The notes: a model not told the origin generated them from the sequence alone. A DNA stretch of 64,000 nt from a virus (IMGVR_UViG_3300042904_000308:51173-115172); one strand, 5' to 3'. Positions 10,107-64,000 are shown, counted from the first letter of the stretch. Numbers and translations: made by a program.

Positions 10107-10580
10107 AACTACTCCCGAGACTCAAAGGGTCCGTTGTCGTTGAACACCGACGAGCGCCGATTGAATACGGGAAACGGCGGCTTCGGTGGCGTGTTACCTG
10201 CGATCTGGCGGACCTTCGCGACCAGCGCGGCCACGTCATCAAAGCGTCCCAGCGTCACGTAGAATGGGTCACTGCCTTGCCCGACCTGGATGACAAGCTC
10301 CTCACCCTGTAGCGTCACCTTAACCTGATCAGGCATATCCTCTCGCAGTGTCAGGTCAATTCGATCAAGATTCATGCCAGTATCAACGCCTCCCCCACTC
10401 TCTTCACAACGTGACTCGCGTACTGCTTCGCCATCGCAGGCGTTGCAGGGTCGATGTAGTATTCACACCCTGCCCAGTTCGCCTTGTTCCTCGCCCACTC
10501 CGTGACATCCTCATGCTCACCTGTCAACAGGAACTCACCGTAGCCAATGATGTACACGTAATACGTCTTCGGCGTGTGCA

Positions 10581-24905: not shown

Positions 24906-26016
24906 TGTTCCTCCTCCTATGCTTGTGGGTACGCCTTTGCGACGTCCCTACCCTTATGGGTCAGCAGCACCTTGAGATTGCTGAGGCTCAGGCTTTCCCG
25001 CTCGTACCGCGCCCTGGCCTGGGCCTCATCGTCGTACTGCGCAAAGAACCATGACGGTCGATCCGACCAGACCCCCGAGGGCGCGAGATAACTGACCGAC
25101 CACTCTGTCACCCTAATCTTCATAGCTTCTCCCCCAGCACGCCGTTGCCGTGGAACGTTATCGTCCTGTAGTGACCACTCGCCACAAGGTGCCTGTTGCG
25201 CTTTCCCGCTGCCTGCTTGACTGCCTGGAACGCCACGAGAACCTCCAGCCTCGTGACGGTTCGCTCGACCTCGCTCCGCCGATTCTCGTTGTGTGCCCAG
25301 CACGCCATCCTGTGAACATGGGAAGCGGCATCGACCTCCGCCTGCAACCGCTCCCCCTCCTCGTCCAGATGCTCCCACACGGCGTCAGTCTTGTTCGTCA
25401 TCCTCCCACTCCTCGTCGTAGCCGTTGATACGGTCGGCTCGAAGCTCCATTTCCTGCGCCAGCTTCGCCAGAACGTGTTCCCGCAGCTGCCTCGTCAGCC
25501 GCTTGACCCCGTAGTGATTGCAGATCGCCTCCCTCGGCGCGTAGACGATGCCTGCCAGCCCCGCGTCCCACGGACAGGTGAACTGGCCCCTCGGCGTGGT
25601 CGTGGCACAGAGGGCCACCCCGCCATGCACGTAGGCGTAGACAGGGAGCGCCACCCCGCGCCCAGGCTCGTTCAGATAGGCGACCGTGCCGCTGATCGTG
25701 ACCTGTGCCCGTGCAGGCAGCGTGTCCACGAACCGCTCCAGGTCTGCATCGACCGAAAAATATCTGCTGGTCGTCTTGCCGTAGAACGTTCCGATCATCG
25801 TTGTGCCTCCAATACTGTTCGTGCCTCGTCCCATTGAATCCACCCGTCGCGTAAGTCCTCGGTTAGCTCGGCAATCAACCCCCTTTGCGTACCCTGCGGT
25901 GCCGTTACCTGCTGCCTCGTGACCTTCCCTGCAATGCGCAGCGTGCGCAGGATCACGAATCTCCCCTGCGCGTTCGTGGTGGCCTTGTATGTGACCCTCA
26001 TCGTGACTTCCTCTCT

Positions 26017-26337
26017 CTACCCTAACACTCGCTCGATCAACGTTCGTGCCCTCATCGACGGCTCCCGCGTCAAGAAGCCCTTGCCGCGTGCTGCCTCGTA
26101 AGGAACGGGAGTCTCAAACTGAGCAGCTGTCACATCCAGCACCTGACCGTCGAGCGTCCGCAGAAACCAGTGTGACGCCCCCTCGTGCCTCACGTGCATC
26201 GGTGTATCGACCCTGCCCCGTAGATGGTACAGAGCTTCACTAGCCACGTAGCAGTGCCCCGCCAGCGGATGGCTTCGACCCCTCCATTCAGGCCGCAGCA
26301 GATCAGGCGTGAGACGTGCAACAACCGCGTCAACCAT
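26017..26337 (-). CDS. papain/transglutaminase-like fold protein
   Basis: GHCY...HWFL...LDVT gives a putative Cys-His-Asp triad. Confidence 0.5.
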   Translation of the reverse strand: MVDAVVARLTPDLLRPEWRGRSHPLAGHCYVASEALYHLRGRVDTPMHVRHEGASHWFLRTLDGQVLDVTAAQFETPVPYEAARGKGFLTREPSMRARTLIERVLG

Positions 26338-26858
26338 CGTGACTACCTCTCTCTACCCTAACACAGATTCCAGCGTCTCGACCGCTTCGAGCATGTTCGC
26401 CCGAGCTTCCTCGATCTGCGCCAGCAGCCGCTTCGATACCTGCCGCCTCCCCCTTGCCTGGGCCTCTACCGACTTGAATCTCGATGCCGCATCAGCCGCC
26501 TTACGTCGAGCCGCCTCGATGCGCTCCGCCTTCTCGACAGCCTCCCGCTTCCGCCGTCGCTCGACGCGATCCCTGATCCGCTGTTGATCGAAGTCCGTGA
26601 AGAAACCCTCCAGCTGCACCGTGAACCTCCTCTACCCTTCCATTCCCGCTCGGCTTTCAGCTTCCAGTTCCAGCCTGTGAGCTTCGTCATAGCCCACCCA
26701 AATCTGCACGGTGCGTCGAATGCCGCGCTCCATGAACAGACCCCGATCTTCGACAACCCTGCTGTCCTCCTTCATGTCCCGAAACGCCCCAGCCCACAGC
26801 TTCAACAGTAGCTCCCGCTGCTCGTTATCCACGCCTGAACCTCCTCGCTAAACCAATC

Positions 26859-26978
26859 GGTGGAGCTGGGGGGAATCGAACCCCCGTCCAGACCACGAGC
26901 CACCCTTATAGAGTGGATGGGCTTGTTTCTGTGCGCGTTCTCGCCCGTCCCGTACCCTGTCGATACCATGACAGCCCC
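26859..26978 (-). ncRNA. ssrA-like: miniature tmRNA (tRNA-like domain intact, mRNA-like domain reduced)
   Basis: 5' GGGGCUGUCAUGGUAUCGAC and 3' GACGGGGGUUCGAUUCCCCCCAGCUCCACC. Acceptor stem GGGGCUG/CAGCUCC has G3.U70 and A73. It also has a T-arm and a P2-like stem, and is only 120 nt long. Confidence 0.85.
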
Positions 26979-27753
26979 AGGTGAGGCCCAGGGTCGGGCC
27001 TCGATGCTTACTTGACTTCCGTCGTGACACTGCGAACGGTGAGTCCCTTGAACCAGTCCTTGAGGTCATCGTCGTGCTGGAGAAAACTGGCAAAATCTCT
27101 CAGCAGTTCGTCGAAGGGATACGGCTCATCCTCGGCCATACCCCACGCCCCCACAGCCTTGCGTTTGTTGTAGGTGACGTTCAGCGTGATCGTTGCGCGT
27201 GCCATCGTGTTACCCTCCTACTCGCAGATGCAGAACGACTTCATGTTCCCACAGAACAGGCACTCGTCGGGATGAGACTCGGCCAGAATGATGCACGGCA
27301 CGTCGTAGAAATACTGCGCCAGCACCTTGACCTCGTCCAGCCCGTCGTACGCGGCCTGAGCCTCCTCCTTCGTCTCGAACGTCGTTACCTTCTCGTCAGT
27401 GAGAACCGCGTACCACATTACGTCCATCGTGTGACCTCCTCGTGTGAATCGCCAGTCCGTTTCTCCCTACCCTTGCAGGGGTACCTTCGTGAGCGAGTAC
27501 CGCTCCAAGAGAGAGTCGCGATATTCGTCAATTTCTTCGTCTGTCAGGTCGTCGTAGACCTCGACCTCCTCAGTGACCCCCTCTCCAATCTCAGCGTTCA
27601 TTGCCGCCACAGCTGCCGCCTCGTTCGCGTACACCCCCACGACATGCACAATGTTCTCGTCCTGGTTCTCGTACATCAGCACCACTACATCCATCGTGCG
27701 ACCTCCCGCCTGCTTGTGCAGGCACGTTCTACCCAACGCCTGAGCCTCTCGCT

Positions 27754-27806
27754 AGGCATCAGGCAGGGCCAGCCGCTGTCATTCAGCCGCCCTGCTAGGT
27801 GCCTAC
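27754..27806 (-). repeat. intergenic hairpin element, copy 1
   Basis: Plus strand AGGCATCAG-GCAGGGC..GCCCTGC-TAGGTGCCTAC. Confidence 0.85.
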
Positions 27807-28455
27807 CTCTTACCCTCTACCCTTATCGGTTGTATGGGGCATCCATGAAGATGACCTGATGGACGCGATTGCAGGCCTGGCACCTGTAATGCCCCTGCCA
27901 GTCAGAATCTTCTGGCGGTCCATCGGGCATGTCGGGATCATCCCCGTACCAGTCGAAGGTGTGTGGGTCCGCCGCGTAAAACCCGCTACCCTCGGCAGTG
28001 TTCCCGCACTGGCAGCGGTAGCCATTCATCTGCTGCGCGTAGATTCTCTCCATTGTACCGTGTCTCCTCTCGGTGAAATGCTGCCCCTACCCTTAGGGCA
28101 GTTCTTCCCAGTTCTCTTGTTCGATCATGCTCAGTCCCGACGCCGCATCCTCAGCCAGCACGTCGGCTGCGATCTTTCGGAACAGCATGTCGGCCTGGGC
28201 ACCTTCCCGCGTCACTCGCGCACGCACGTTGTGAACGGCATAGCTGACGTGCAGCTGTTCCGCCACACCCTCCGCGCAGGTTGCCTCTAGCGATTCACGC
28301 ACCCCAACGCAGGCGTCACGGAGCGACTCGCCTCCCTTCACGACCCCGACGATCAAACGATCCAGTTCCCACAGGTATCCCGTCACTGCTACCTGATCCA
28401 TGACTACCTCCTCGAAACGCTGGCGGGAGCCACGATTGACCCCCGCCCCTGAGCC

Positions 28456-29700
28456 TCACCACTCGATAACAGCCGCCCGAGTGATGTATGTCTGCTTCTG
28501 CCCCTTGTACTCGCCGTGCTGCTTCACGGTCGCCTTCAACACGACCGTGTGCCCCGTGTCGTGCGCCCAGTTGAAGTTATTGCTCGACCGCCAGACGACC
28601 ACGTTGTTGTCGTCGTCCGTGAATCGGATCATGTACGTGATCCCGTAGTCGCCTTGAAGCTCGATGCAGCCCACGACGTTCAGGGTGAACACGTCGCGCT
28701 TCCCGACCTCACCAACCCACTCGCTCGGGTTGGCCTCCTCAGCCTCCCGCTTCCGCCGCTCGACCTCGATGCGCTCGACCTCCCGCAGGTAGGCCTGCAC
28801 CAGACTCGCCACGATGCCGCTGTTGCGACCCGTAACCTCGTCCAGGCTGCTCGCCGTGCGCAGGTTGTAGAGGTAGTCGTTCTGCACGTCGGCGGGGATC
28901 GCTCTCGCCCACTCGACGGCCTTCGTCGCCAGTTCCACGTCGGCCTGCCCGACCGAGAAGCCGTCCCGCTCCATATCCGCGAAGGCGTCCTTGTTGTAGC
29001 CCATCGGCCCGACGACCCACACCCACGCCTGATCCGCAGTCGCCTGCCTGCCAACCCCGTAGCGTGCCTCCGTGCGGGAGAGCCAGCCGTACATGCGGAT
29101 TGCCGCCGCACAGATCGCCACGTAGCCGAACGTTTCCTCGCCCCGCTCGAAGCCCCCGCCTCCCCCGCCGAAGCCCTCCTCGGCCTCCTCGCCCAGCCCT
29201 CGAAGCTCGTCGAGCCACTGAGACTGGGCCACCAGATGCTCGGCGCTCGTGCTGCCCACGAAGTCGGCCAGACAGTTCCGACCCACCTGGGCGTAGCGCC
29301 CGTCCTCGTGCTGGATCACAAAGACCTCTTTGCGGTAGCGGTTCGAGTGGCAGTGGTCGCACGTCATGTCGCTCGTGCGGTACCGCTGGGGTACCTCCAC
29401 GTCGCCAGCCGCTCGGATGATGTTGCCTGCCTCGGTCGGCTCGATGGTGGCGATGAAGCGCCAGCCGCTGAGACGCACAGGCTCGGCGTTGAGAATCTCG
29501 ACCTCGTACCACTTCCGTCTGTACGGGTAGACCTCGATGCCAAGCTCGTTTCTGACGGTCGTCTCGTACTCACGCAGCACCCGAAGCTCGGCCTCCACGC
29601 AGCCCAGCTTCCGCGCCCGTTTGTTCAGGTCGTCCAGCTTGGCCCTCAGCCGCCCCATGTTCACCGCAGGAACAGTGAACGTTCGCTGCTCGTCGCTCAT
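28456..29700 (-). CDS. conserved phage protein with Zn-binding motif and C-terminal OB-fold-like domain
   Basis: CDHC...VGRNC and a C-terminal WVGEVGKR...LKATVKQHGEYKGQKQT. Confidence 0.6.
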   Translation of the reverse strand: MSDEQRTFTVPAVNMGRLRAKLDDLNKRARKLGCVEAELRVLREYETTVRNELGIEVYPYRRKWYEVEILNAEPVRLSGWRFIATIEPTEAGNIIRAAGDVEVPQRYRTSDMTCDHCHSNRYRKEVFVIQHEDGRYAQVGRNCLADFVGSTSAEHLVAQSQWLDELRGLGEEAEEGFGGGGGGFERGEETFGYVAICAAAIRMYGWLSRTEARYGVGRQATADQAWVWVVGPMGYNKDAFADMERDGFSVGQADVELATKAVEWARAIPADVQNDYLYNLRTASSLDEVTGRNSGIVASLVQAYLREVERIEVERRKREAEEANPSEWVGEVGKRDVFTLNVVGCIELQGDYGITYMIRFTDDDNNVVVWRSSNNFNWAHDTGHTVVLKATVKQHGEYKGQKQTYITRAAVIEW

Positions 29701-30177
29701 TTCCGCCCTCGCTTTCCCTGCTCGTGCTTCACCGTGTCCATATCGTCACGGTTGTACCGCTCGATCAGCAGCCAGCAGTCCTCGCTGCCCTCTACCCTAT
29801 AGAGCCGCTGAACCTCGGTCGCCTTCGCCAGCGTGATCCCCTCGCCGCCCCGCGTCAGCCGCTCGACGCAGCCCGAGTCGCAATAGCTCTGCGAGTCGCC
29901 CATGATGAATACCGCCATCGTTCCCTCCTCTAGCCTTGCAGCCTGAGACTTGCTGCCGCCGACCGAACGTTCTCCCACGCCTGCCACCCGAAGAAAAGCT
30001 CGATATGCTCCTCCAGGTGCATTAGCTCGACCGCACAGGCCCGAGCCATGCCCTCGTATCCAGCCGCCTCGTGTTCAACCCTGCGATCTTCCAGCAGCGC
30101 GACCTCGTGCAGTGCCTTGTCGAACTGTTCCCTTGTCATGCCCTTTGTCCTCCGTTCCTGAGTCAGATACCCGAGTC

Positions 30178-30223
30178 AGGCATCAGCGAGAGGCCCAGGC
30201 CTGAGCCTCTCGTAGGTGCCTAC
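30178..30223 (-). repeat. intergenic hairpin element, copy 2
   Basis: AGGCATCAG-CGAGAGG..CCTCTCG-TAGGTGCCTAC; contains the TAG stop of ORF 30220-30333. Confidence 0.9.
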
Positions 30224-31797
30224 CCCAACAGAAACCACACGACCGCCGCTATGATCCCCAGTAACCAGAACGGCACGTTCAGCCGCAGCCACAGGTGCTT
30301 GCCCAGCAGCCACACGTTGACGTGAATCGTCATGCTCCTCCCTCCCGCTGGTACGCCTCGATCTTCGCCTTCGCCGCGTGGTAGATCGCCTCTAGCACGT
30401 CGAACGGAACCTCGATGGACTCGTTCGGCCAGTAGTCATCGTCAGCCGATGAGTAGTATTCAACCGACACGTTGAACGCCCCGTCACTGCTCATACGCAG
30501 GGACGCCTCAACACCCGCGACCTCCTCCGTCTCTGGTCGCTCGTACAGCCCCCGCTCCGTGGTCGTGTTGAACTCGACTGCCTCTTGCAGCTTCGCCTGG
30601 TCGATCATGCCTACCCTCTACCCTTCCACTGATTCAGCTGCCAGACCTCTCGGTGCGCCACGCTGTAGAACTTCCAGAACTTGCCGCTGTCCCTCGTCGC
30701 TGCCTTCGTCAGGTGCAGCGAACACATGTAGACCGTGCCATCGTCCGCCGAGGCAATCGAGCCTGCCGCGAACCCTGTGTTGGCCTGCCGCCTGCACTGG
30801 CGGATGTCGTCGCGCCTGCTTCGCCGCCTCACCGCGCACTCACACTGCACCATCTTGACCTCCGATCAGACCCCGCTCGACTGCCGCCCTGTGCAGCCCC
30901 GCGAACGCCTCAAAATGTGCCGTACACCGATCAGTCACGTACTTGGCGGCATACTCCGAGCGCCACCGCAGCAGCTGGGCCTCAGTCGCAAGGTGCCCCA
31001 GCCCGAGCCATACCAGCATCCCCGCTGTCGCCTGTGTCTTACCCACGACGTACCTCCTCGACCTCGCTAACCGTCCAACCGCACTCCTCCAACACAGCCT
31101 TCGTCGCCTCGGCATCGCTGCGATACATGAATCCGTACACATACGGTCCCTGCGGATTGTCTGGATGTGACGCCTCGATGGTCCAATTGTTGAAGCTCGC
31201 TACCCATGCCGTCTGCATCGTTTCCTCCTGTCATGCCCCTAACTTACCACGTCGCCGCCAGTGTCGCCTCCTGACAACCACAGACCGCCGTCTGCTCGGT
31301 GAAGTAGTCCACGAGTGCCTGCCCCGCGACCTCGTCGGCCAGCATGACCTGTCGGCAGTCCTCGTACACCGCGCCCTCGATGCTCCCGAAGAGCGCGAAC
31401 CGCGCCAGCGCATTGTTCCGCGCATCGCTGTGCAGGTGCGCCAGTTCCCTCATCCGCCGCTCTCGCTCGTTCATCCCTGACTCTCCCTCGCTCGCCGCCG
31501 CGCCTCGTCGCCCAGGCGGACCCGCTCATAATCGACTTTTATCATTGCCGCTTTCGCCGCGTCATACCGCTGCACCCAGTCCCGCACTGCCTCCTCGCTG
31601 ACGCCCTCCCGCAGCAGGTTGATGCCCTTCTCTGCCGTGGCGTAGTCCATGCAGCAGGCCACGACCGAGCCGTGAAACCTGACCTGTGGGTGTGTCTTGC
31701 CCGTCAGGATGCACGGCTTCATGCTGACGGGCCAGTTACATTCGATGTGGTACTCGCGTTCCATGTTGACCTCCTCTACCCTATATCGTGCCTGTGC

Positions 31798-31843
31798 AGG
31801 CATCAGCGAGAGGCCCAGCCCTGAGCCTCTCGTAGGTGCCTAC
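31798..31843 (-). repeat. intergenic hairpin element, copy 3
   Basis: Nearly identical to copy 2; contains the TAG stop of 31840-32052. Confidence 0.9.
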
Positions 31844-32907
31844 TCGACCTCCACCGTGTACGTCTGCCGCGTCTCCGTCTCGCCGTCTGCCGTCATCCTC
31901 ACCACGTATTGCCGCGCCCCACTGCCGCGAGGAAAGACCCGCATCAGGGTGAGTGCCGCCGTCTGCCCGATTGTCTCGGCCATCTGCTCGTCCTCGACCC
32001 TGTCCAGCATGCGCTCTGGCGCGTCTGGCTGCTCCAATGTGATCGTGAACATGCCTACCCAACCTCCACTTCGTCTGGCCCCAGCTGCACCAGATCGAGC
32101 GTGACCCGCTCGCCCACGAAGTAGGGATCAATGTCTGCATTGCCCGTGTACTGCACCCCGTCGAACACGCGGCAATACTTCGCTAACGCCTCCCACGCGG
32201 CCTCCTCGCTCGAATGCAGGCTGACCAGATGGCCGTCCTGCGCGAACACTGGAAAGATTCTCATTGCCTGCCCTTTCGCTACGCTGGCGGGTGCCAGATC
32301 GACACCCACCCCAACCCTGAGCCTCTACCCGTACACCTTCCCCGTTATGTGGACCTGGGCGACGTACTCTGCCGCCTCTGACCGCTTGTCGAACGTCAGG
32401 ATGGCGGGGATGCCGTGGTCATCGTGAATGGGCATCCAGCCCCACGGTGACTTCAACACTCGGCCCCGCGAGTGCCCATCATCGCCGCCAATCGGCTGAC
32501 CGTCGATCAGCACATCGTAGAGCGGCGGAGCGCCCCTGTGCGCCCATTTTTTCATGGTGACTTTCATGCTCTCGGCCCTCCTACCGTCATGGTGCCCCGT
32601 TGACACCCCTCTACCCTTAGAGGTTCCAGCCCGTGATAATCGCCCTACTCGCATTGAGTTCGGCCCCGAGCCTGTCACCGTTCAACGCGCACTGCTCGGC
32701 ATCGAGCGCCATCCCTGCCGACTGTCCAGCCCTCTCGGGGTTGATGCAGTCCTTCGCCGCACGGATGGCCTGTATCACGTCGTGCCACATCCCCGCCTGC
32801 GCCTCAGCTGCCGCCATTTCTTTGTTCGCTGTCGCCAGCGCATCGTTGAGCATCCTGTTCAGCTGCATCGTGTCCTCCCTGTCGTGTGCCTAATCCGCTG
32901 CCTGTGC

Positions 32908-32952
32908 AGGCATCAGTCAGCGGCCCTGGTCGAGCCGCTGATAGGTGCCTAC
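32908..32952 (-). repeat. intergenic hairpin element, copy 4
   Basis: Inner stem TCAGCGGC/GCCGCTGA; contains the TAG stop of 32949-33095. Confidence 0.9.
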
Positions 32953-33413
32953 CCGTCAGCCTCCTCCGCGTCACAGACCTCGGCGCAGCCCTGCGTACAC
33001 TGCTCCATGTCGGGCGAAACCTGCTCACAGACTGCCCCGTCGGGCCACGAACTGTGCGTGTCCCAGCACGCATCCAAGCATTGATTGCACGTCATACCGC
33101 TACCTCCTCAGGTGCCTGCCCTGCGGCCATCCTCACGCATACCAGCCGTTGAACTGCTCGCGAATCTCTGCGGCTGTGTGTCTGCTGGGGTCGCCTATCG
33201 CCTGCCCTCGCCCTTGCAGGCACAGCACGCATACGGCAGGCTCCTCGTCCAGATTGACAGCCGTACTATCCCAATCGAACCAACGTTCGCACTCAGGGCA
33301 TTGGACGACGCCGCGTTCAATGTCTAGTTCGAAGGTGCCGTCATCCCGCCGATGCGTGGTGTTGAACCAGACGTAATTCTTTGCCATTGCCTCTACCTCC
33401 TCAGGTGCCTGCC

Positions 33414-33608
33414 CTATCGCCAAAACTTACCGTTCTCGTAGACGTTGACGAGCCTACTGCCCTCGTAGACCTGTGCCTGCCCTCCCTCGCTATCCACCCA
33501 ATACCGAGCGAATGCGTAGGCGTCCGTCAGTGTCGCGTACTCCCTGACGTTCGCCCGTAGCGTGGTCCACTTACCGTTAGAGAATCCGTAGTGCTTCACT
33601 TCGTACAT
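33414..33608 (-). CDS. hypothetical protein, paralog of 24708-24905
   Basis: Clear amino-acid identity along the whole length. Confidence 0.75.
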   Translation of the reverse strand: MYEVKHYGFSNGKWTTLRANVREYATLTDAYAFARYWVDSEGGQAQVYEGSRLVNVYENGKFWR

Positions 33609-33647
33609 GACTCACTCCTTCGATGTGCCTGCCTTGCGGCCATCCGC

Positions 33648-33689
33648 AGGCATCAGCCAGCACCCCGCAAGGTGCTGGTAGGTGCCTAC
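33648..33689 (-). repeat. intergenic hairpin element, copy 5
   Basis: Inner stem CCAGCACC/GGTGCTGG. Confidence 0.9.
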
Positions 33690-33952
33690 CCGTTGACCTC
33701 CTCTACCCTTACCCCCCAATCAGGCGATACCGATAGTCCGCCCGATACTCGCTAACCTGCTCGACCTGAGCGACTAGCACGCTGTCAGCGTCCCACACGC
33801 CCCGAGCTATCACCCGCTGCCGCGCAGCCTCCGCCCCTTCGATGCTGCTGAATTGTCGCTCCCACGCGGTCCCGAGGATGTCGCCGCTCTCCAGCCTGTA
33901 AACGATTGCGTACATGGTTCCTCCTCCAAGTGCCTACCCTGCGGCCATCCGC

Positions 33953-33998
33953 AGGCATCAGTCAGCGGCCCGAACCCGAGCCGCTGATAGGTGCCTAC
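33953..33998 (-). repeat. intergenic hairpin element, copy 6
   Basis: Inner stem TCAGCGGC/GCCGCTGA; contains the TAG stop of 33995-34164. Confidence 0.9.
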
Positions 33999-34206
33999 CC
34001 TACCTCGCAGTGGCGGAGCGCATCGGGGATATCGTTGAACTCCTCGACGGCCCGAACGATTGGCGCGGGTCCACTGTGTACGGCAATCGTGCAGTCAGCA
34101 CCCGCCCCGTACGCTGTGAAGTCAGCACCGACCAACGCCAGCAGCAGTACCAACAGTTCGAACATGGTTTCACGCCTCCTATGTGCCTAGCTTGCAGCCA
34201 ACCTGC

Positions 34207-34258
34207 AAGCACCAGTCAGAGGCCCAACCCAACGCCTGAGCCTCTGATAGGTGCCTAC
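34207..34258 (-). repeat. intergenic hairpin element, copy 7
   Basis: AAGCACCAG-TCAGAGGC..GCCTCTGA-TAGGTGCCTAC. Confidence 0.85.
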
Positions 34259-34830
34259 GTTATGGGCACCGCTCACCCGTAGCACTGCACTCCTCGGGAT
34301 CATGCCCCGCAGCAGTGCAGACCTCGAAACACGCGCCAGACTCCAACCCGACACAATCGCCGCACCACTGATAGCAGTAGCCGTCGAATGGGTCGCAGTA
34401 GGTTGGACCGCCACACACCGAACACGTACCCATCTTTTACCCCTCCTACCCTATGCGCACTTCCCGAGCGTGCCGAACGTCCCATATCGCTAGTTGGTTG
34501 TGTGCCTGAGCCAGGGCCACCGCGTCAGATTTGCGCCGAACATTGACAACGGGATCAATGTAGACCGTCCCGTCATCGTTCCACGTGCCCCAGGTGCCGC
34601 CATCGCTCACCACGCTATCGAGCAGCCCCGCCAGCGTGGATGTATCGTCAATTCGAGCCGTCAGGCTATTGTCAGACAGCCCGACCATGTAACCGCTCGC
34701 ATAATCGAGCAGCCCGCTACCGTCGAAGGTTGCGCCATTGTTGGCGCGGGTCGCCTTGATAATCTCGGATGTCGAGAACATCGTGACTCACTCCCACTTG
34801 CCGAACGTGCCTACCCTGCGGCCAACCCGC

Positions 34831-34876
34831 AGGCACCAGACGGGGCACGCGATACCATGCCCCGTTAGGTGCCTAC
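34831..34876 (-). repeat. intergenic hairpin element, copy 8
   Basis: AGGCACCAG-ACGGGGCA..TGCCCCGT-TAGGTGCCTAC. Confidence 0.9.
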
Positions 34877-35003
34877 TGTACTTCCTGCCTCTACCCTAAT
34901 AGCACGCCACCGATAGAGCCATTGCTGGCGATGGTGTCGAGAATGTCGCGGATATCGTCTGTCATCGTGCCTACCCCTACGCTAGTACCGTGATACCTCA
35001 GTC

Positions 35004-35049
35004 AGGCATCAGACGGGGCACGCGATACCATGCCCCGTTAGGTGCCTAC
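35004..35049 (-). repeat. intergenic hairpin element, copy 9
   Basis: Same inner stem-loop as copies 8 and 10. Confidence 0.9.
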
Positions 35050-35426
35050 TTTGCCGCCACTTTGTCAGAATCGACCAGGCGGATAGTGCCTACTTTGCCG
35101 CCAGTTAGTCAGTTATCCAGCTGGGATTAGCCAGCGCTATCCGTGAGCGTGCCCTACCGTCTGCAACGGTCGTAACCCGCAAGGTGCCATCGTTCCAATT
35201 TGAGACTATCAGCCGCCTACCGTCTGGTAGACCGAGGCTAGCGGTAGCGTCTGGTATCTGTGCAAACGTGGTGGCATTCTCCCACGCGGTGCGGAGCGTT
35301 CTGTACTCGTGAGCGGTGCCGAAACCGTCGCCGTTGTCGTATCTAACTGTGAACATTGCGCCTACTCCTCGACTATGTGCCTACCTTGCGGCCAACCCGC
35401 AAAGTGCCTGCCTATCGGCCATCGCC

Positions 35427-35472
35427 AGACATCAGACGGGGCACGCGATACCATGCCCCGTTAGGTGTCTAC
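35427..35472 (-). repeat. intergenic hairpin element, copy 10
   Basis: AGACATCAG...TAGGTGTCTAC, with a compensatory change in the outer stem. Confidence 0.9.
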
Positions 35473-35474
35473 CC

Positions 35475-36278
35475 CTAGGCCTGAGCCACTACCCCGAAGA
35501 TAGGTAGATGGGATACATGGAACCCGAAACCCGCAAGGTTCCACAGTGTCCATTGGACCGCGAATACTGGCAGTTCGGGAAGTTCAACGCTCGCCCAAAC
35601 CTGCCACGCCTCACTGAGAATCTGGTACGCGGCGTCACTGGTGAATGTCGGGTTTACCGTGGCATCCTCACCCGCCGCGTACAGAGATAGGCGCATCATC
35701 CAAACGTCGAGCGTGAATACTGGCGCGTAGCAGTCCCACAATGCGACCGCCATCGACGAGGTTTTGGCCCCCATGCCGCGTAGGGTAATCAAGCGGTCAA
35801 ACGTCATATCGTCAGCGGTAATTGACTGCAATAGGGGCAGTGCTGCAAATACCGCTTGAGCCTTATTTCGCCAGTACATGAAGCGGCCAGACTCGCCAGA
35901 CTTGAGGGTAACGCGCATGACATCTTCCACGTCACCGACCGTTTGCAGGTTGTCGATGATCGGCGCAATGTTCGCCGCTAGTTCAACGTTGAAATTGAAC
36001 GCCAGTTGCGGCGATAGGATGGCGAACAGCACGCAATGGCGAGCGTATAGCGTGGGATTGTCGAGCCGCATTGATTGCATACGGGTGAGTTCGGCCAGCA
36101 CTGGCGCGGCATTTTCACGCACCAACGCGGATAGATTCACGCTGGAATCAGTCAGACTATCCGCAAGGTTTTGCGCGTGGGTTTTGTTGATTGCCAGCGT
36201 GGGCAGTTCGGATTTGCGAGCGTACGAAACCGTATGCAGATTGCCTACGGAGTGCGGGTTATTGATTGTGCCGAGCAT
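35475..36278 (-). CDS. HhH-superfamily DNA glycosylase/AP lyase-like protein (Ogg-like)
   Basis: AILSPQ, RF.YWRNKA, HhH motif LITLRGMGAKTSSM with Lys, and LDVWMMR carrying the catalytic Asp position. Confidence 0.65.
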   Translation of the reverse strand: MLGTINNPHSVGNLHTVSYARKSELPTLAINKTHAQNLADSLTDSSVNLSALVRENAAPVLAELTRMQSMRLDNPTLYARHCVLFAILSPQLAFNFNVELAANIAPIIDNLQTVGDVEDVMRVTLKSGESGRFMYWRNKAQAVFAALPLLQSITADDMTFDRLITLRGMGAKTSSMAVALWDCYAPVFTLDVWMMRLSLYAAGEDATVNPTFTSDAAYQILSEAWQVWASVELPELPVFAVQWTLWNLAGFGFHVSHLPIFGVVAQA

Positions 36279-36303
36279 TGACTATCTCCCATTCATTGCC
36301 TAG

Positions 36304-36668
36304 TGTCGCCAGCCGCGAAACACTGCCAAACATCCCGTAGGATGCTAGGCAGTGCATAGGCTAGTAGAGTGATTCACTACGTACTAGCCTCACACTGTAT
36401 CCAACCTGCTATTACTAGCAGTCCCTTACCCTAGTAGGTGCTACGCCACTAGGGTAACTTGCGGTTAGCTATTCGCCATCGTGCCTACCGCGATTCACGA
36501 AACTATGGAATATCGCCCCGACTGTTACCAGTGATGTATTGCCGTTTGCCGCTAACCCGCTCGCCTCATTAGGGTAGTGAGTGACTCACTAGGCGAAACC
36601 TACTACCGTGAGGGATAGAGCCAAACTAGCGATACTCGCAGTACCAGTGCTGGTAACGTCTGGCGATA
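36304..36668 (-). ncRNA. large multi-branched structured RNA (early leader domain 2)
   Basis: Closing stem TGTCGCCAG/CTGGCGATA encloses at least six hairpins. There is no ORF. Confidence 0.65.
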
Positions 36669-36692
36669 TGAACTTGTCAAGGTGCTAAGAGA

Positions 36693-36872
36693 ATCTAACC
36701 GAAACCCGAAGGGTCTACGTTCGTACGGAACCGTTCCACGGTAAGCAATGTTTGGACGTTCGCTAGGTTCCTCGCATCGGTTTCGAGCCTAGGCTAGAAA
36801 CCTGACGGGTTAGCGTCCCGAGCGTCAAGGCTTACCCTACTGTGTGAGTGCTGCCGTACGACCGCGTTAGAT
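36693..36872 (-). ncRNA. rod-like structured RNA (early leader domain 1)
   Basis: Nested inverted repeats ATCTAAC/GTTAGAT, CGTACGG/CCGTACG and GGTAAGC/GCTTACC, lying between two boxA-like motifs. Confidence 0.6.
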
Positions 36873-36933
36873 GCAATTTGTAAAGTGCGCGCCCCCTCGT
36901 TGCCGAGTGGCGTTTGTCATTGCTGACACTGGT

Positions 36934-36962
36934 AATCTAGCAAACGCTGATCAGGATGTCAA
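36934..36962 (-). promoter_or_regulatory. sigma70-type major early promoter
   Basis: TTGACA-N17-TAGATT, heading the minus-strand arm. Confidence 0.8.
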
Positions 36963-38479
36963 TACCCTAATTCCAGATGCCCCTACGCGCATATAATGAA
37001 AGCGGCCAGGCCGTTTGCAATGTTGAATATGCAGATAAACATTGGGCAAACGGGGCAATTTGAGGCAATTTTTGAGAATCGTAAAATTGCCTCATATTTG
37101 ACCGCTCATCCCTCACATTATGGCAACCTATCGCCCTGGTCGGCATGGTTCTACGACCTCGTTAGCGGTAGCTATTCGAGCCTGCAATGTGTCGTGAATA
37201 GCAGTCTGGCGTACGCCGCTAGCACGCCGCTAGCAGTGCCCCTACAGTGCCGCTAGTGATGCCCCTAGCCTATCGTGGGAGATGCCCCTATCGTGCCACT
37301 GGTACGCCAGACGGGGCAGGCACGATTCATGAACGGCAATTCACGATAGCCTGGTTTCGTTACTAGGCAGTAAGCAATGGCGGCGGGTTGGTAACTGGCG
37401 AGTAAGGAAGTCGAGCGGGTGAATGTGAACGAGGGTATAGAATGGACGGGTTGGGAGTGAACGAGGGTAAAGTATGGGATTACTAACAGTTCGTCACATA
37501 CGCGGATTATTACCAGTGGGTTAGATATGTGAGCTGCGTTTGTGAATGTGCGGTAAGTGGGTATGTGAACGAGCATAAAGCACATATGTGAACGAACGAT
37601 AAGCGACCAGGCGAGTGCTGACAGTCAACCTAATCACTATTAGGCGGGTTGACACTCCAGACGGGGCTAGAATAGTGCGTACGTACGCGGGTTTAGGGGT
37701 GGCGTGGCCCCTCAAATCCGCTCCATTCGCGCGTTATGTTGACCGCTGCAAGTCACCAAAATAACTGCCCACTATTTTCGCAAATGCGCCTCGTTCAGCT
37801 CCCCCGCCCCGCTCGATTTTCACCGTTTTCGAAGCCGATCTGAGCCGATTTTCGAAATTCCAGGCGGTATTTTCGCCCTGGAAGAAATTCCTGAAAAATT
37901 CGCGCAAAATTTGGCCCTTTCTGGCCCTCTTTTCATTAAACGCCACCAGAGCGTCACTGTTGAGGCCAAAAATGGGCCTGAGAGCCGCGAAATGTCACAC
38001 GAATGACACAGATATCGCGTAGGACGGCCTTTTCGGCCCTGAGGGCAAGAATGAGGCCATACCCCGAGCCTGGGCCTCACCTGCCGTCGGAAATCATGAG
38101 CGCTCTCTCTCGTGACCGAGCGCACCCTGGTCGACGGCTTACTCCTCTCTCTGTGTGTGTACTCTCCCCTATGGAATGGGAGGGGCTCAGGCCAGGGGAT
38201 CGATCCGAGCTCGGACGCCTGCGCAGGCAGCTGGTACGGATTGTGCTATAACGCTGATTGCTAGGAGAGCTGGCTGCAACAGCTGTCCTGGTACAGCCAG
38301 AGGCGAGAAGCGTCACCCGAGCTCAGGGTGGCGCTTCTTTAGCTCGACCAGAAAACGTACGTTGACCCTGCTAACGTACGCTTTATTAGAACGAAGGTTC
38401 TCTAGTACTATACCTATATTAGATATATAGGGCCGATTTCCTGAAACCCCAGCTCCCGCCTAGGCATTTGGGAAATGGG

Positions 38480-54845: not shown

Positions 54846-55805
54846 CTAAAAGCCGAGCTTGGCGTACTCCTCCTTGAGCTCGTCTTTCGCCACCTGCGCG
54901 TAGATGCGCGTGGTCTGTGGGCTGCTGTGACCCAGCAAGTCCTGCACGACTTCCAGCCGCTTGGTCTTGTTGAGGGCCATCGTCGCGAAGGAGTGCCGCA
55001 GCACGTGTGGCGTCAAATCCTCTGGAAGCTGGGCCTCCCTGAGTCCTTCCTTGAAGGCCGCGTAGGCCGAATGCGGGGTCATCGGCTTGCCCATATCGAC
55101 ACCGAACGACCGACCAGCCTCGCCGTAGAACACATAGTCCGTGTACGGGTGATCCCCGATATACCGCTTCAGACGTTCGATCAAGTGCGCAGAGAGGGGC
55201 ACAAACCGCTCTTTCCGCCCTTTACCGATAATCTTGACGCCATCATCGAGCACGCCGTCCTTGCGCAGCGTCAGAATCTCCTCGATGCGCAATCCCGCCT
55301 GGAACATCACCCGAAACAGCAGACCGTACTTTTCCGCCGTGTCTTCCTGCGCCCAACCAAAGTGCTTCGTGTTGTCATCACGGCTCAGCGCGTCCTGCCG
55401 CTTTCGGCGCAGCGCAACCTCGATGCCGTCGAGCACGCGATCAATCTCCTCGCGAGTGAGGATGGTTGGCAGCTTGCGCGGCAGGGTTTCCGCCATGATG
55501 TTCGCCATCGGGTTGTTGCCCTCGTAGAGCTTGTTGCCGATAGCCCACGCGAAGAATGTACGGACGGCGCTGATCGTCTGGTTGCGGGTCGCGGGTGACA
55601 GGTTTCTGGCCTTCGCCTCACGCACCATTCGCTCACCATCCTTGACCACCCACTGGCGCAGCGGTCTGTCGACAAGCGACTCGGCGCGGCGAAGCGCTTC
55701 CCCATAGGACGACAGCGTTTTCTCGGTGCCCATCTTTCCCGCGTACGGCAAACCGTGGCGCTTGGCATCGATGAAATCCTCAATCGTCATTCTCACAGCA
55801 GACAT
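54846..55805 (-). CDS. tyrosine recombinase/integrase (XerC/D-like)
   Basis: GLRIEE (R), GKGRKER (K), HVLRH, LGHS and TRIY catalytic residues, plus a SAM-like N-domain. Start is 55805 or 55790. Confidence 0.92.
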   Translation of the reverse strand: MSAVRMTIEDFIDAKRHGLPYAGKMGTEKTLSSYGEALRRAESLVDRPLRQWVVKDGERMVREAKARNLSPATRNQTISAVRTFFAWAIGNKLYEGNNPMANIMAETLPRKLPTILTREEIDRVLDGIEVALRRKRQDALSRDDNTKHFGWAQEDTAEKYGLLFRVMFQAGLRIEEILTLRKDGVLDDGVKIIGKGRKERFVPLSAHLIERLKRYIGDHPYTDYVFYGEAGRSFGVDMGKPMTPHSAYAAFKEGLREAQLPEDLTPHVLRHSFATMALNKTKRLEVVQDLLGHSSPQTTRIYAQVAKDELKEEYAKLGF

Positions 55806-55841
55806 CCTTTCAATAAACCTTATCTCACTCCACCTAATCTT

Positions 55842-55871
55842 ATCGTACCACCAAATTAGGTGGTGTGTCAA
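55842..55871 (-). promoter_or_regulatory. sigma70 promoter of the recombinase with overlapping inverted repeat
   Basis: TTGACA-N18-TACGAT; CCACCTAAT (55830) / ATTAGGTGG (55855). Confidence 0.65.
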
Positions 55872-55881
55872 GGAGTACCCA

Positions 55882-56358
55882 GTGGCCGAAACCGATGAAT
55901 ACGGTCTGCCCGAGGCAGAGCCTGAAAAACGCAAGCGGGGGCGTCCGAAGGGATCAAAAAACAGACCTCCTGAAACGATCCTGACGCGGGATCGCCTTGA
56001 AAAGCTCTACGACAAGGTCAATCCCTATCTGACGCCAGAGCAGAAGAAATATACCCGAGAAATTCTGGACGGGAAACGAGAGGTTGACGTCCAGTACGAA
56101 ATGCAGCTGCTGGTCCGCCAGCTCTCCATCATCTTCTCCGAAGCCGCGATCTGGTTCTGGAACGAGAAGAAGGTCAACCGCGACCTTGCGATGTTTGCCG
56201 ACTCGTTGCGGCAAGCCCTCAAAGACCTCAACGAAATCAATCGACAAGTCGAAGACAAGCAAGAGAAGACGAAAGAAGATGATCTGGTTCGAGTCACCGA
56301 GCGGGGGTCCACGCTGGAAAGGCTTAAAGCCCTACCTGGCTTCGATACCTCCGAGTGA
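55882..56358 (+). CDS. terS: terminase small subunit (putative)
   Basis: GTG after AGGAG, AT-hook-like KRGRPKGSKN, and a position directly upstream of terL. Confidence 0.6.
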   Translation: MAETDEYGLPEAEPEKRKRGRPKGSKNRPPETILTRDRLEKLYDKVNPYLTPEQKKYTREILDGKREVDVQYEMQLLVRQLSIIFSEAAIWFWNEKKVNRDLAMFADSLRQALKDLNEINRQVEDKQEKTKEDDLVRVTERGSTLERLKALPGFDTSE

Positions 56359-63419: not shown

Positions 63420-63911
63420 ATGACACATTTCGATATGGACGGGCTGGTTCTGCACCTTGGGCAGGTGCTGAAGAAGCAGTTCGCTGACGACATTTCTCAA
63501 ATCTACTACGGCGACGTCGTCGTGTACCCGCCCAAAGCGTTTCAGAACCCTGCTGGTGAGTGGCGCACGGCGGTCGCGCTGGTTCCAGCCTACGACAGGG
63601 AAGCGGACGGGGGCCGCAACCCAGCGTCCGAAATCCGCGACCTCGGCGTGCTGATTGTTCCTATGGTGAACATGACCCCATTTTTCGAGGCGCTGCCTTC
63701 CGAAGCGTTCGGAGAGCGGATGCTCGTGCGCCTGACGCACCGCATCCGATTATTCCTCGCCCAGCGGAGCAACATGACCCTCAACGGCAATGTCGCCCGA
63801 GCCCTCGTTGGCGATGTTGAGTGGCACTGGGCGCAGCGCGACAAGATGCCCATCCGCGCTGCCGCGATCACCTACGAAGTGCAGAGCCACTTCTCACGCG
63901 CCCACGCCTAA
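63420..63911 (+). CDS. tail completion/terminator-like protein
   Basis: Position, size and the TLNGNV motif. Confidence 0.5.
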   Translation: MTHFDMDGLVLHLGQVLKKQFADDISQIYYGDVVVYPPKAFQNPAGEWRTAVALVPAYDREADGGRNPASEIRDLGVLIVPMVNMTPFFEALPSEAFGERMLVRLTHRIRLFLAQRSNMTLNGNVARALVGDVEWHWAQRDKMPIRAAAITYEVQSHFSRAHA

Positions 63912-64000
63912 AAGCCTGGGCCTCCCCCCCCCTTCTCAGAGTTTGGTAAGCAAATCATATTGTTTTATGTCCCTTACATAGGAAAGAGGTAATGTTATGG

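What the first reader, a model, noticed from the sequence alone, without database searches (positions are those of the whole stretch)
27754..35472. Ten covarying hairpin elements punctuate the early genes like a cassette array
Seen: mRNA-sense consensus GUAGRCACCUA-[7-8 bp variable stem plus variable loop]-CUGRUGYYU at 27754, 30178, 31798, 32908, 33648, 33953, 34207, 34831, 35004 and 35427. The inner stem changes sequence completely between copies yet always pairs. The outer stem shows a compensatory change in copy 10, and the 2x2 internal loop (UA/CU) is invariant. Four copies contain the TAG stop of the upstream gene. Several are followed by a second hairpin (GCGG/CCGC), then GYAGGCAC and the next RBS. 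Half-sites occur near 33112, 33402, 34967, 35087, 35377 and 36481. Density rises towards the early promoter. There is no U-tract, so these are not intrinsic terminators. Inference, three options: (a) RNase III-like or phage-nuclease processing sites that cut the early transcript into stable units, as in T7 early mRNA; (b) protein-binding or antitermination elements; (c) attC-like ssDNA hairpin recombination sites for shuffling single-gene cassettes, possibly via the tyrosine recombinase at 54846-55805.
Basis: partly seen in the sequence, partly recalled or inferred. Interest (0 to 1): 0.85.

Follow-up and report, generated by a model that had tools for sequence, protein, structure and literature searches.

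The report
REP-like hairpins punctuating phage early operon
Ten copies of a small two-storey hairpin with a fixed GTAG head sit just behind stop codons in the early operon of an uncultured 115-kb phage. They are real and built like bacterial REP repeats, but they are private to this phage; they most likely mark cistron boundaries in the early RNA and are not integron-like recombination sites.

Summary
Ten 42-53-nt elements lie at the stated coordinates, all on the minus (mRNA-sense) strand, and nowhere else in the 115,172-bp genome. Pairing is strongly supported: 94% of cells are paired, 10 of 17 pairs show changes on both sides, and slid controls give 33-45%. Fold z-scores run from -3.2 to -7.8. 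The claim that inner stems change completely is overstated, because there are about six related stem classes.

The anatomy matches GTAG-tagged REP units of the E. coli type: GTAG head, 7-bp lower stem, invariant 2x2 mismatch, variable upper stem, TAG reused as a stop codon, and a position 20 nt or less behind the upstream ORF. Nearly identical copies have unrelated flanks, so the unit is discrete.

Against REP membership: only ten copies, all co-oriented, no RAYT gene in the phage, and no multi-copy genome in viral, metagenome or GTDB scans. The attC reading fails, since the recombinase is XerC/D-like and the stems have no extrahelical bases.

The 3' arm is shared with a conserved 5'-UTR hairpin. 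In two relatives that hairpin follows individual early promoters. My best reading (about 0.45) is therefore RNA punctuation by processing and end protection. This scan has already met REP-like repeats in another phage.

The parts
35427..35472 (-). E10, full element (46 nt); head starts 2 nt after the TAG stop of the 267-aa first gene; outer stem carries the compensatory A-U pair
35004..35049 (-). E9, full element (46 nt); inner stem identical to E8 and E10
34831..34876 (-). E8, full element (46 nt); outer stem fully paired (G instead of A in the 3' arm)
34207..34258 (-). E7, full element (52 nt); 12-bp inner stem built on the genome-wide decamer; extra G.U pairs
33953..33998 (-). E6, full element (46 nt); its TAG is the stop codon of the upstream 56-aa ORF
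33648..33689 (-). E5, full element (42 nt); preceded by a leftover ribosome-binding-site-like stretch
32908..32952 (-). E4, full element (45 nt); its TAG is the stop codon of the upstream 48-aa ORF
31798..31843 (-). E3, full element (46 nt); its TAG is the stop codon of the upstream 70-aa ORF; 98% identical to E2, with unrelated flanks
30178..30223 (-). E2, full element (46 nt); its TAG is the stop codon of a 37-aa hydrophobic ORF
27754..27806 (-). E1, full element (53 nt); longest inner hairpin, with one bulge; last copy of the array
34815..34830 (-). Second hairpin (hp2) after E8; its lower stem borrows the last 3 nt of the E 3' arm
34191..34206 (-). hp2 after E7, with two compensatory pair changes relative to the other hp2 copies
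33938..33952 (-). hp2 after E6
33633..33647 (-). hp2 after E5
35385..35426 (-). Two hp2-like units after E10, with an AGGCAC box between them
32899..32912 (.). 14-bp perfect palindrome P; its left half is the 3' arm of E4
31789..31802 (.). 14-bp perfect palindrome P; its left half is the 3' arm of E3
27708..27723 (-). P-type hairpin (6-bp stem, 4-nt loop) directly 5' of the ribosome-binding site of the gene after E1
35377..35384 (-). S box (free copy of the head 8-mer), 20 nt before the start codon of gene 2
34967..34974 (-). S box 1 nt before the ATG of a 24-codon ORF
34807..34814 (-). S box 25 nt before the start of the 111-aa gene
34183..34190 (-). S box variant, 17 nt before a start codon
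33930..33937 (-). S box 14 nt before a start codon
33625..33632 (-). S box variant, 16 nt before a start codon
33405..33412 (-). S box variant without an E element, 17 nt before a start codon
33112..33119 (-). S box variant with a partial hp2 but no E element, 16 nt before a start codon
32886..32893 (-). S box variant, 17 nt before a start codon
36481..36488 (-). Isolated head 8-mer in the long early leader, directly before a 4-codon ORF
36934..36962 (-). The only sigma-70-type promoter found for the leftward early operon (10 of 12 matches, extended -10)

Best explanation
What it is: a phage-private family of GTAG-tagged, REP-type palindromic units. They are transcribed as part of one long early leftward mRNA that starts at the promoter at 36962.

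Anatomy of each unit: it folds right behind a stop codon into a two-storey hairpin. From the base upward this has a 7-bp lower stem, an invariant 2x2 mismatch, and a variable 9-12-bp upper stem.

Proposed mechanism (inferred): the hairpins act as RNA punctuation.
1. A double-strand-specific or structure-specific endoribonuclease, such as host RNase III, or simply 3' exonuclease arrest, makes each upstream cistron end in a protective hairpin.
2. The 3' arm, once released from the unit, completes the small hairpin (hp2 or palindrome P) that sits directly 5' of the next ribosome-binding site. Each downstream message therefore starts with a 5' hairpin.

In this way the unit does by processing what separate early promoters do in the two relatives I could read.

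Shown: the elements, their fold, their positions, their discreteness and their privacy to this genome. Inferred: transcription through them, cleavage or arrest, and the helix switch.
For: 1. Structure with covariation: 94% paired, 10 of 17 pairs doubly changed, 0 of 500 shuffles; z -3.2 to -7.8.
2. Position: the head lies -4 to +19 nt from the upstream stop codon in 9 of 10 copies, and the 3' end lies 33-41 nt before the next start codon in 7 of 10.
3. Orientation and range: all ten copies are co-oriented with transcription, confined to the first 9 kb behind the single early promoter, and absent from the other 106 kb.
4. No promoter and no U-tract terminator lies inside the array, so the genes must share a transcript.
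5. Units are absent where genes overlap or abut and present between translation units.
6. The 3' arm is also the left half of hp2 or P, so the two helices compete.
7. Comparison with relatives: in relative G001 the same 14-bp palindrome occurs 7 times against 0 in controls, intercistronic and just 5' of ribosome-binding sites, in some cases right after a -10-like box. In relative G002 at least ten early genes each carry a promoter, then a covarying 5' hairpin, then a ribosome-binding site.
8. Transcribed REPs and MITEs are held to stabilise or destabilise mRNA, and one family is cut by RNase III (background and references of PMC3733652).
Against: - No RNA data exist.
- Sense and antisense strands fold about equally well (-290.6 against -282.1 kcal/mol summed), so thermodynamics does not single out the RNA strand.
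- No RNase III gene is in the phage record, and the host is unknown.
- The lower stem is short (7 bp with a C.A mismatch in 8 of 10 copies), which makes a marginal RNase III substrate.
- Covariation in hp2 is weak (38 of 500 shuffles reach the observed pairing).
- The invariant GTAG and 2x2 mismatch are exactly what a REP transposase reads on single-stranded DNA (PMC8266576). They may therefore reflect spread rather than RNA function.
Confidence: 0.45

Rival explanations
1. Selfish REP-type units that spread at the DNA level. Spread would be through single-stranded hairpins recognised by a host RAYT-like HUH nuclease, or through gene conversion. In this reading the units are merely tolerated in the early intergenic gaps and have no dedicated RNA role.
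For: - The features that never vary (GTAG head, 2x2 mismatch) are the determinants TnpA-REP needs in E. coli REPs (PMC8266576).
- Copies that are 93-98% identical have flanks at only 20-36% identity, so the unit behaves as a discrete insert.
- A leftover ribosome-binding-site-like stretch lies upstream of E5, as if the unit had been inserted there.
- Reuse of TAG as a stop codon, closeness to the upstream ORF, G.T pairs and compensatory sub-families are all described for GTAG REPs (PMC3733652).
Against: - No Y1 transposase gene is in the phage.
- There are only ten copies, all in one orientation and all in one 8-kb operon, although the genome has many other intergenic gaps.
- No bacterial genome among 185,579 species representatives holds more than a single chance match to the full pattern.
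- The distance to the next start codon is regular.
Confidence: 0.2
2. Binding sites for a phage regulator, comparable to the stoperators of Cluster A mycobacteriophages or the SAS/ESAS motifs of Cluster K. A protein would read the AGGCAC box and the palindrome P on DNA or RNA to time early gene expression, and the hairpin would be secondary.
For: - The head 8-mer occurs 17 times on the minus strand and 0 times on the plus strand of the genome.
- Free copies sit 14-25 nt before nine start codons.
- P is a perfect 14-bp palindrome of operator type and is conserved in a relative.
- The layout (start-associated box plus upstream inverted repeat with variable spacer, about half of sites extended, non-structural genes only, one orientation) mirrors SAS/ESAS (PMC3203893; PMC7302621).
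Against: - The arms are 24-33 bp apart at variable distance, which a dimer on duplex DNA cannot span.
- The spacer covaries as a helix, which a pure operator model does not predict.
- For ESAS the authors found no compensatory changes; here they are abundant.
- No candidate regulator was identified.
Confidence: 0.15
3. Transcription signals that lack a U-tract. These could be factor-dependent or weak terminators or attenuators that set a polarity gradient, or put/nut-like elements that act on RNA polymerase.
For: - Stable GC-rich hairpins lie between cistrons, and their density falls with distance from the promoter.
- A long structured leader precedes the operon.
Against: - No U-tract follows any copy.
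- Ten successive terminators in front of genes that have no promoter of their own would silence the distal genes.
- Known put and nut sites occur once or twice per operon (own knowledge).
Confidence: 0.1
4. attC-like single-stranded recombination sites that shuffle single-gene cassettes through the tyrosine recombinase at 54846-55934.
For: - The array looks like ORF plus hairpin, with a lower stem, an unpaired spacer and a variable top that loosely recall the R box, central spacer and variable region of attC.
- The flanked genes are all ORFans.
Against: - The recombinase is XerC/D-like and far below the integron-integrase cut-off.
- It lies 19 kb away and not next to the array.
- There are no extrahelical bases, and the units are shorter than known attC sites.
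- The head motif does not fit the attC core.
- Many genes in the array lack a unit.
- Homologous recombination between 46-nt direct repeats, as shown for PeSL mini-circles (PMC2839356), would explain any shuffling without a dedicated enzyme.
Confidence: 0.03

Closest known systems
GTAG-tagged REPs, especially the E. coli-type 'group 2' units (Di Nocera 2013, PMC3733652; Corneloup 2021, PMC8266576)
   Same: - GTAG at the 5' end of an imperfect palindrome.
- A lower stem, then a conserved 2x2 mismatch, then an upper self-complementary part.
- Sub-families with compensatory stem changes, and G.T pairs.
- Intergenic position 20 nt or less behind the upstream ORF, with TAG of the tag used as the stop codon.
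- Sharp unit boundaries.
   Different: - Ten copies rather than hundreds.
- In a phage, not a chromosome.
- All copies single and co-oriented, with no head-to-head or tail-to-tail dimers.
- 42-53 nt rather than 20-40 nt.
- The last two letters of the tag are paired.
- No RAYT gene nearby.
- No matching family in any genome searched.
SAS / ESAS motifs of Cluster K mycobacteriophages and Cluster EF Microbacterium phages (PMC3203893, PMC7302621)
   Same: - Phage-private repeats restricted to non-structural genes and in one orientation.
- 10-19 copies per genome.
- A short box near start codons, and in about half of the cases an upstream inverted repeat with a variable spacer.
- Function unknown.
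   Different: - No sequence similarity.
- Here the box lies 5' of a normal ribosome-binding site instead of replacing it.
- The spacer is itself a covarying helix.
- The inverted repeat shows compensatory change, which was not seen for ESAS.
RNase III processing sites of the T7 early transcript (own knowledge: Dunn and Studier)
   Same: - Intercistronic hairpins with an internal loop in one long early mRNA.
- Several related copies.
- After cutting, the upstream message keeps a protective 3' hairpin.
   Different: - No sequence relation.
- The helix is shorter.
- Cleavage is untested and the host enzyme is unknown.
PeSL cassettes of T4-like phages (PMC2839356, PMC4122927)
   Same: - Repeated stem-loop modules between small ORFan early genes.
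- Direct repeats that can recombine and loop out genes.
- Relative G002 has a true promoter-plus-hairpin version of this layout.
   Different: The units here contain no promoter and no terminator tail.
Integron attC sites
   Same: A hairpin follows each of several promoter-less ORFs. The fold has a conserved base, an unpaired spacer and a variable top.
   Different: - No integron integrase.
- No extrahelical bases.
- Shorter units.
- A different core motif.
- No attI.

Membership tests
GTAG-tagged REP superfamily | Terminal GTAG tetranucleotide at one end of the palindrome | tested here: met
   GTAG is invariant in 10 of 10 copies. However, its last two letters pair with the 3' end.
GTAG-tagged REP superfamily | Short imperfect palindrome (20-40 bp) that forms a stem-loop; group 2 has a conserved mismatch bulge in the stem | tested here: met
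   Two-tier hairpin with an invariant 2x2 mismatch. Length is 42-53 nt, somewhat above the usual range.
GTAG-tagged REP superfamily | High copy number, dispersed over a prokaryotic chromosome | tested here: not met
   Ten copies within 8 kb of a phage genome. Scans of the viral, metagenome and GTDB collections gave only single chance matches without the inner hairpin. Limit of the test: the pattern required 18-44 nt between the arms.
GTAG-tagged REP superfamily | Association with a RAYT (TnpA-REP, Y1 transposase) gene | tested here: not met
   No PF01797 match in the phage record at E <= 0.1. The host genome is unknown.
GTAG-tagged REP superfamily | Extragenic position close to the 3' end of the upstream ORF, with the tag often supplying the TAG stop | tested here: met
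   The head lies -4 to +19 nt from the stop codon in 9 of 10 copies, and TAG is the stop codon in 4.
GTAG-tagged REP superfamily | Frequent inverted dimers (BIME / REPIN) | tested here: not met
   All ten copies are single and in the same orientation.
Integron attC / cassette array | Adjacent integron-type integrase (IntI) | tested here: not met
   The only tyrosine recombinase scores 96.8 bits against a cut-off of 265 on TIGR02249, and 168 bits on XerC. It lies 19 kb away.
Integron attC / cassette array | Extrahelical bases and R/L core boxes in the folded strand | tested here: not met
   The inner stems are perfect helices apart from one bulge in E1. The head motif does not fit the attC core consensus as I recall it (the consensus is own knowledge).
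Integron attC / cassette array | Cassette mobility (variable order, excised circles) | not testable with these tools
RNase III processing sites | Cleavage by RNase III at a defined position in a roughly two-turn helix | not testable with these tools
   The helix equals 18-21 bp including the internal loop. No enzyme assay or RNA ends are available.
Rfam families | Match to any curated RNA model | tested here: not met
   No match in 27500-37000 even at E <= 1. The only window hit at gathering threshold is a tmRNA-like RNA outside the array.
SAS/ESAS of actinobacteriophages | 13-bp box at the ribosome-binding-site position plus upstream 17-bp inverted repeats | tested here: not met
   The sequence is different. 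The box lies 14-25 nt before the start codon and 5' of a normal Shine-Dalgarno sequence. The resemblance is in layout only.

The most novel reading that the evidence does not exclude
The unit is a purpose-built RNA switch, not a passive repeat. Its 3' arm can pair either with the upstream head, closing the big hairpin, or with the downstream box, closing the small 5'-UTR hairpin. Termination of the upstream cistron or a specific nuclease would flip the helix and create or expose the next message. If so, this phage replaced a string of early promoters, which its relatives still have, by a string of processing and switch modules built on a REP-like scaffold.
Probability: 0.25. Interest if true: 0.7.

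Novelty: new variant of a known kind. Interest (0 to 1): 0.5.

Why it matters
REP-type palindromes are regarded as chromosomal repeats tied to a domesticated transposase. Here a complete, covarying family is private to a phage, sits in one transcription unit in one orientation, and is wired into the leader of each following gene.

If the units work on RNA, they offer a compact, testable example of how a phage can segment one early transcript into separately stabilised messages. They would also show how a promoter-per-gene layout can be exchanged for a processing-site-per-gene layout.

If they are only selfish, they show that REP-like units can persist without a transposase gene nearby.

Either way, the 46-nt direct repeats are obvious seams for deletion and exchange of the ORFan early genes.

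Tried and rejected
- Rfam gave no family for the array at gathering threshold or at E <= 1.
- Megablast and sensitive blastn of the region against 50,697 phage records gave no match.
- Exact-pattern scans of IMG/VR, JGI metagenomes and GTDB genomes returned 25 single hits. All lack the inner hairpin and extra head copies, so they are chance matches.
- Close relatives were sought through the 414-aa gene, the portal and an 88%-identical recombinase; none is in IMG/VR.
- The covariance model found nothing in relatives G001 and G002; the best hits, at E 0.5-8, were inspected and are noise.
- The head motif is not enriched in five relatives.
- A promoter inside the module was rejected: no -35/-10 pair was found, and the box abuts the ribosome-binding site.
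- Choosing the strand from fold energy was inconclusive.
- Covariation in hp2 is only weak.
- RNase III and Y1 transposase genes are absent from the phage record.
- Host identification failed through homologue names and through the protein atlas.
- I noticed from memory a resemblance of hp2 to the 3' end of 16S rRNA. I dropped it as untestable here and probably coincidental.

Full report
CONTEXT

The window is the last 64 kb of a single 115,172-bp virus record, which IMG/VR classes as linear. The first 60 nt of the record recur at position 114,982, so the assembly probably closes on itself. Terminase, portal, prohead protease and a tyrosine recombinase identify a tailed phage.

Genes run leftward from about 36.3 kb to the start of the window and rightward from about 36.9 kb. 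The only sigma-70-type promoter found for the leftward block is at 36962-36934, with 10 of 12 matches and an extended -10. No further promoter and no U-tract terminator lies between 27.0 and 36.9 kb.

Between 36.3 and 27.0 kb I count about 29 small ORFs with high third-position GC. None of the 25 I tested matches a family of known function.

THE OBSERVATION

A regular expression for the two arms finds exactly the ten claimed elements. All are on the minus strand, and there are none in the remaining 106 kb. The head motif is 14-fold over chance.

All ten fold alone into the same shape, with z-scores from -3.2 to -7.8:
- two unpaired letters;
- a 7-bp lower stem, with a C.A mismatch in eight copies that is repaired to C-G in E7 and E8;
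- an invariant 2x2 internal loop;
- a 9-12-bp upper stem, which in E1 is longer (12 pairs) and interrupted by one bulge;
- a 4-8-nt loop.

On the alignment, 94% of cells pair and 10 of 17 pairs change on both sides. No shuffle out of 500 matches this, and sliding the partner drops pairing to 33-45%. The lower stem has one true compensatory change (E10) and one G.U (E7).

The upper stems are not unrelated. They fall into about six classes with a common theme, an invariant G-C pair and a U.G wobble at position 9 in nine copies.

THE UNIT IS DISCRETE

E2 and E3 are 98% identical, and E8, E9 and E10 are 93-98% identical over 46 nt. Their 25-nt flanks on both sides are only 20-36% identical. The repeat therefore begins at GTAG and ends with the last letter of the 3' arm. 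It is not part of a segmental duplication.

THE LARGER MODULE

Downstream of most units comes a small hairpin (hp2), or a 14-bp perfect palindrome (P) after E3 and E4. Then comes a free copy or variant of the head box (S), then an ordinary Shine-Dalgarno sequence, then the start codon.

- S lies 14-25 nt before nine start codons.
- The 3' end of the unit lies 33-41 nt before the start codon in seven cases.
- The 3' arm of the unit is at the same time the left half of hp2 or P, so the two helices compete for three to five nucleotides. In minimum-energy folds of whole intergenic regions the big hairpin wins in eight of ten.
- hp2 shows two doubly changed pairs, but its statistics are weak.

RELATIVES

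Nothing close exists in the collections I could reach.

A portal profile found distant relatives, and I read two large ones in full. Neither has the unit.

- G001 (portal 52% identical) carries palindrome P seven times against zero in controls. The sites are always intercistronic and directly 5' of a ribosome-binding site. Several are extended by differing flanking complementarity, and some sit just after a -10-like box.
- G002 (48% identical) has at least ten early modules made of a consensus promoter, a covarying hairpin that starts at about +1, a conserved ribosome-binding site and a small ORF.

So in this clade a hairpin directly before the ribosome-binding site of early genes is the common theme. 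In the relatives it follows a promoter. In this phage it follows the unit. This is my main argument that the unit supplies, by RNA processing or arrest, what a promoter supplies elsewhere: a message that begins with a 5' hairpin, while the preceding message ends in a 3' hairpin.

COMPARISON WITH KNOWN KINDS

The anatomy is that of GTAG-tagged REPs. Di Nocera et al. (PMC3733652) describe:
- the GTAG tag;
- stems of 6-13 bp;
- non-complementary dinucleotides that separate the stem from a self-complementary 'loop' in the E. coli-type family;
- compensatory sub-families and G.T pairs;
- location within 20 bp of the upstream ORF, and use of the tag's TAG as a stop codon.

Corneloup et al. (PMC8266576) show that the REP transposase needs the GTAG and the 2x2 mismatch. 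These are exactly the two features that never vary here.

Membership nevertheless fails on copy number, dispersal, dimer organisation and transposase linkage. I therefore file the element as a REP-like variant, not as a REP family member.

In layout it also parallels the unexplained SAS/ESAS repeats of actinobacteriophages, but it has the compensatory changes those lack.

The attC idea fails on the recombinase type, on the absence of extrahelical bases and on the core motif. Recombination between 46-nt direct repeats, as shown for PeSLs, is enough to explain any cassette-like behaviour.

WHAT REMAINS OPEN

The strand cannot be chosen from energies. Co-orientation fits an RNA role, and it equally fits action on a lagging-strand template if replication starts near 36.5 kb (inference from the skew minimum). 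The host is unknown.

A hairpin starting at or within 15 nt of a stop codon can stall terminating ribosomes and recruit tmRNA (own knowledge: Liang, Rudd and Deutscher 2015; I could not retrieve the paper). A tmRNA-like RNA lies 780 nt beyond the last unit. I consider this link speculative.

VERDICT

The family is real and statistically solid, and it is private to this phage. It belongs to a known architectural class in an unusual setting. Its most probable role is RNA punctuation of the early operon (0.45). The main alternatives are selfish DNA-level spread (0.2) and regulator binding (0.15). This scan has already reported REP/BIME-like repeats in another phage (note e1-4345440), so the general phenomenon is not unique to this genome.

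Noticed in passing
whole genome; in the window e.g. 4622, 5369, 14861, 24983/25018, 30190/30200, 63915: The decamer CCTGRGCCTC and its complement occur 55 times in 115 kb (34 and 21), in both orientations and in coding as well as intergenic DNA. It builds the inner stems of E2, E3 and E7 and abuts E1. It is absent from the top k-mers of relatives G001 and G002.
   Followed up: partly
window 26858-26978 (-): A 121-nt match to the Rfam tmRNA model (72.5 bits, gathering score 47) spans model positions 1-374, so it is a strongly shortened tmRNA-like RNA. ARAGORN does not call it. It lies on the same leftward transcript, about 780 nt after the last unit.
   Followed up: no
genome ends (window 63810-64000 and genome 1-191): The first 60 nt of the record recur at 114,982 and the last 77 nt recur at 116. 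This is an imperfect terminal repeat of about 190 bp that differs in a C-run. The record classed as linear is probably a closed or terminally redundant genome.
   Followed up: partly
L073/L074 (G002 positions about 76400-86300, minus strand): At least ten repeated early modules in the relative G002. Each has a conserved -35 with upstream tag, 17 nt, a -10 of type TAnAGT, then a covarying 11-15-bp hairpin, a conserved ribosome-binding site and a small ORF. This is a PeSL-like layout.
   Followed up: partly
L077-L080 (G001 positions 10166, 28565, 40747, 48018, 49093, 52045, 74962): A perfect 14-bp palindrome occurs 7 times against 0 in the control. All sites are intergenic and next to ribosome-binding sites. 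Three are extended to 24-28-nt perfect palindromes by differing flanks, and one lies between two very large (2659 and 1572 aa) genes behind a GTAG.
   Followed up: partly
window 28456-29700 (-): The only large gene inside the array (414 aa, phrog_2319) has homologues in jumbo Vibrio, Salmonella and Ruegeria phages at about 28% identity. The AlphaFold model has pLDDT 89.8, and three Cys are invariant. The best Foldseek matches are OB-fold single-strand-binding proteins, though weak (E 2e-3, about 100-120 residues). It may be a nucleic-acid-binding protein.
   Followed up: partly
window 32265-32324 and 28402-28455 (-): A second, two-copy intergenic element: stop codon, the genome-wide decamer, then a related GC-rich hairpin ending in the same short tail, before the ribosome-binding sites of two genes.
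   Followed up: no
window 26000-35000 (-), gene junctions: A purine-rich junction motif (GGGTAGAGG type) recurs behind stop codons, and many early proteins end in Gly-stop. Two tight junctions read stop, two letters, start within a head-like heptamer (32052-32059 and 30608-30615).
   Followed up: no
window 54846-55934 (-): The XerC/D-like recombinase has an 88%-identical homologue on an 18.7-kb JGI contig.
   Followed up: no
window 30220-30333 (-) and 34891-34965 (-): Very small ORFs between units: a 37-aa hydrophobic peptide whose stop codon is the TAG of E2, and a 24-codon ORF whose ATG follows the S box by 1 nt and has no Shine-Dalgarno sequence.
   Followed up: no
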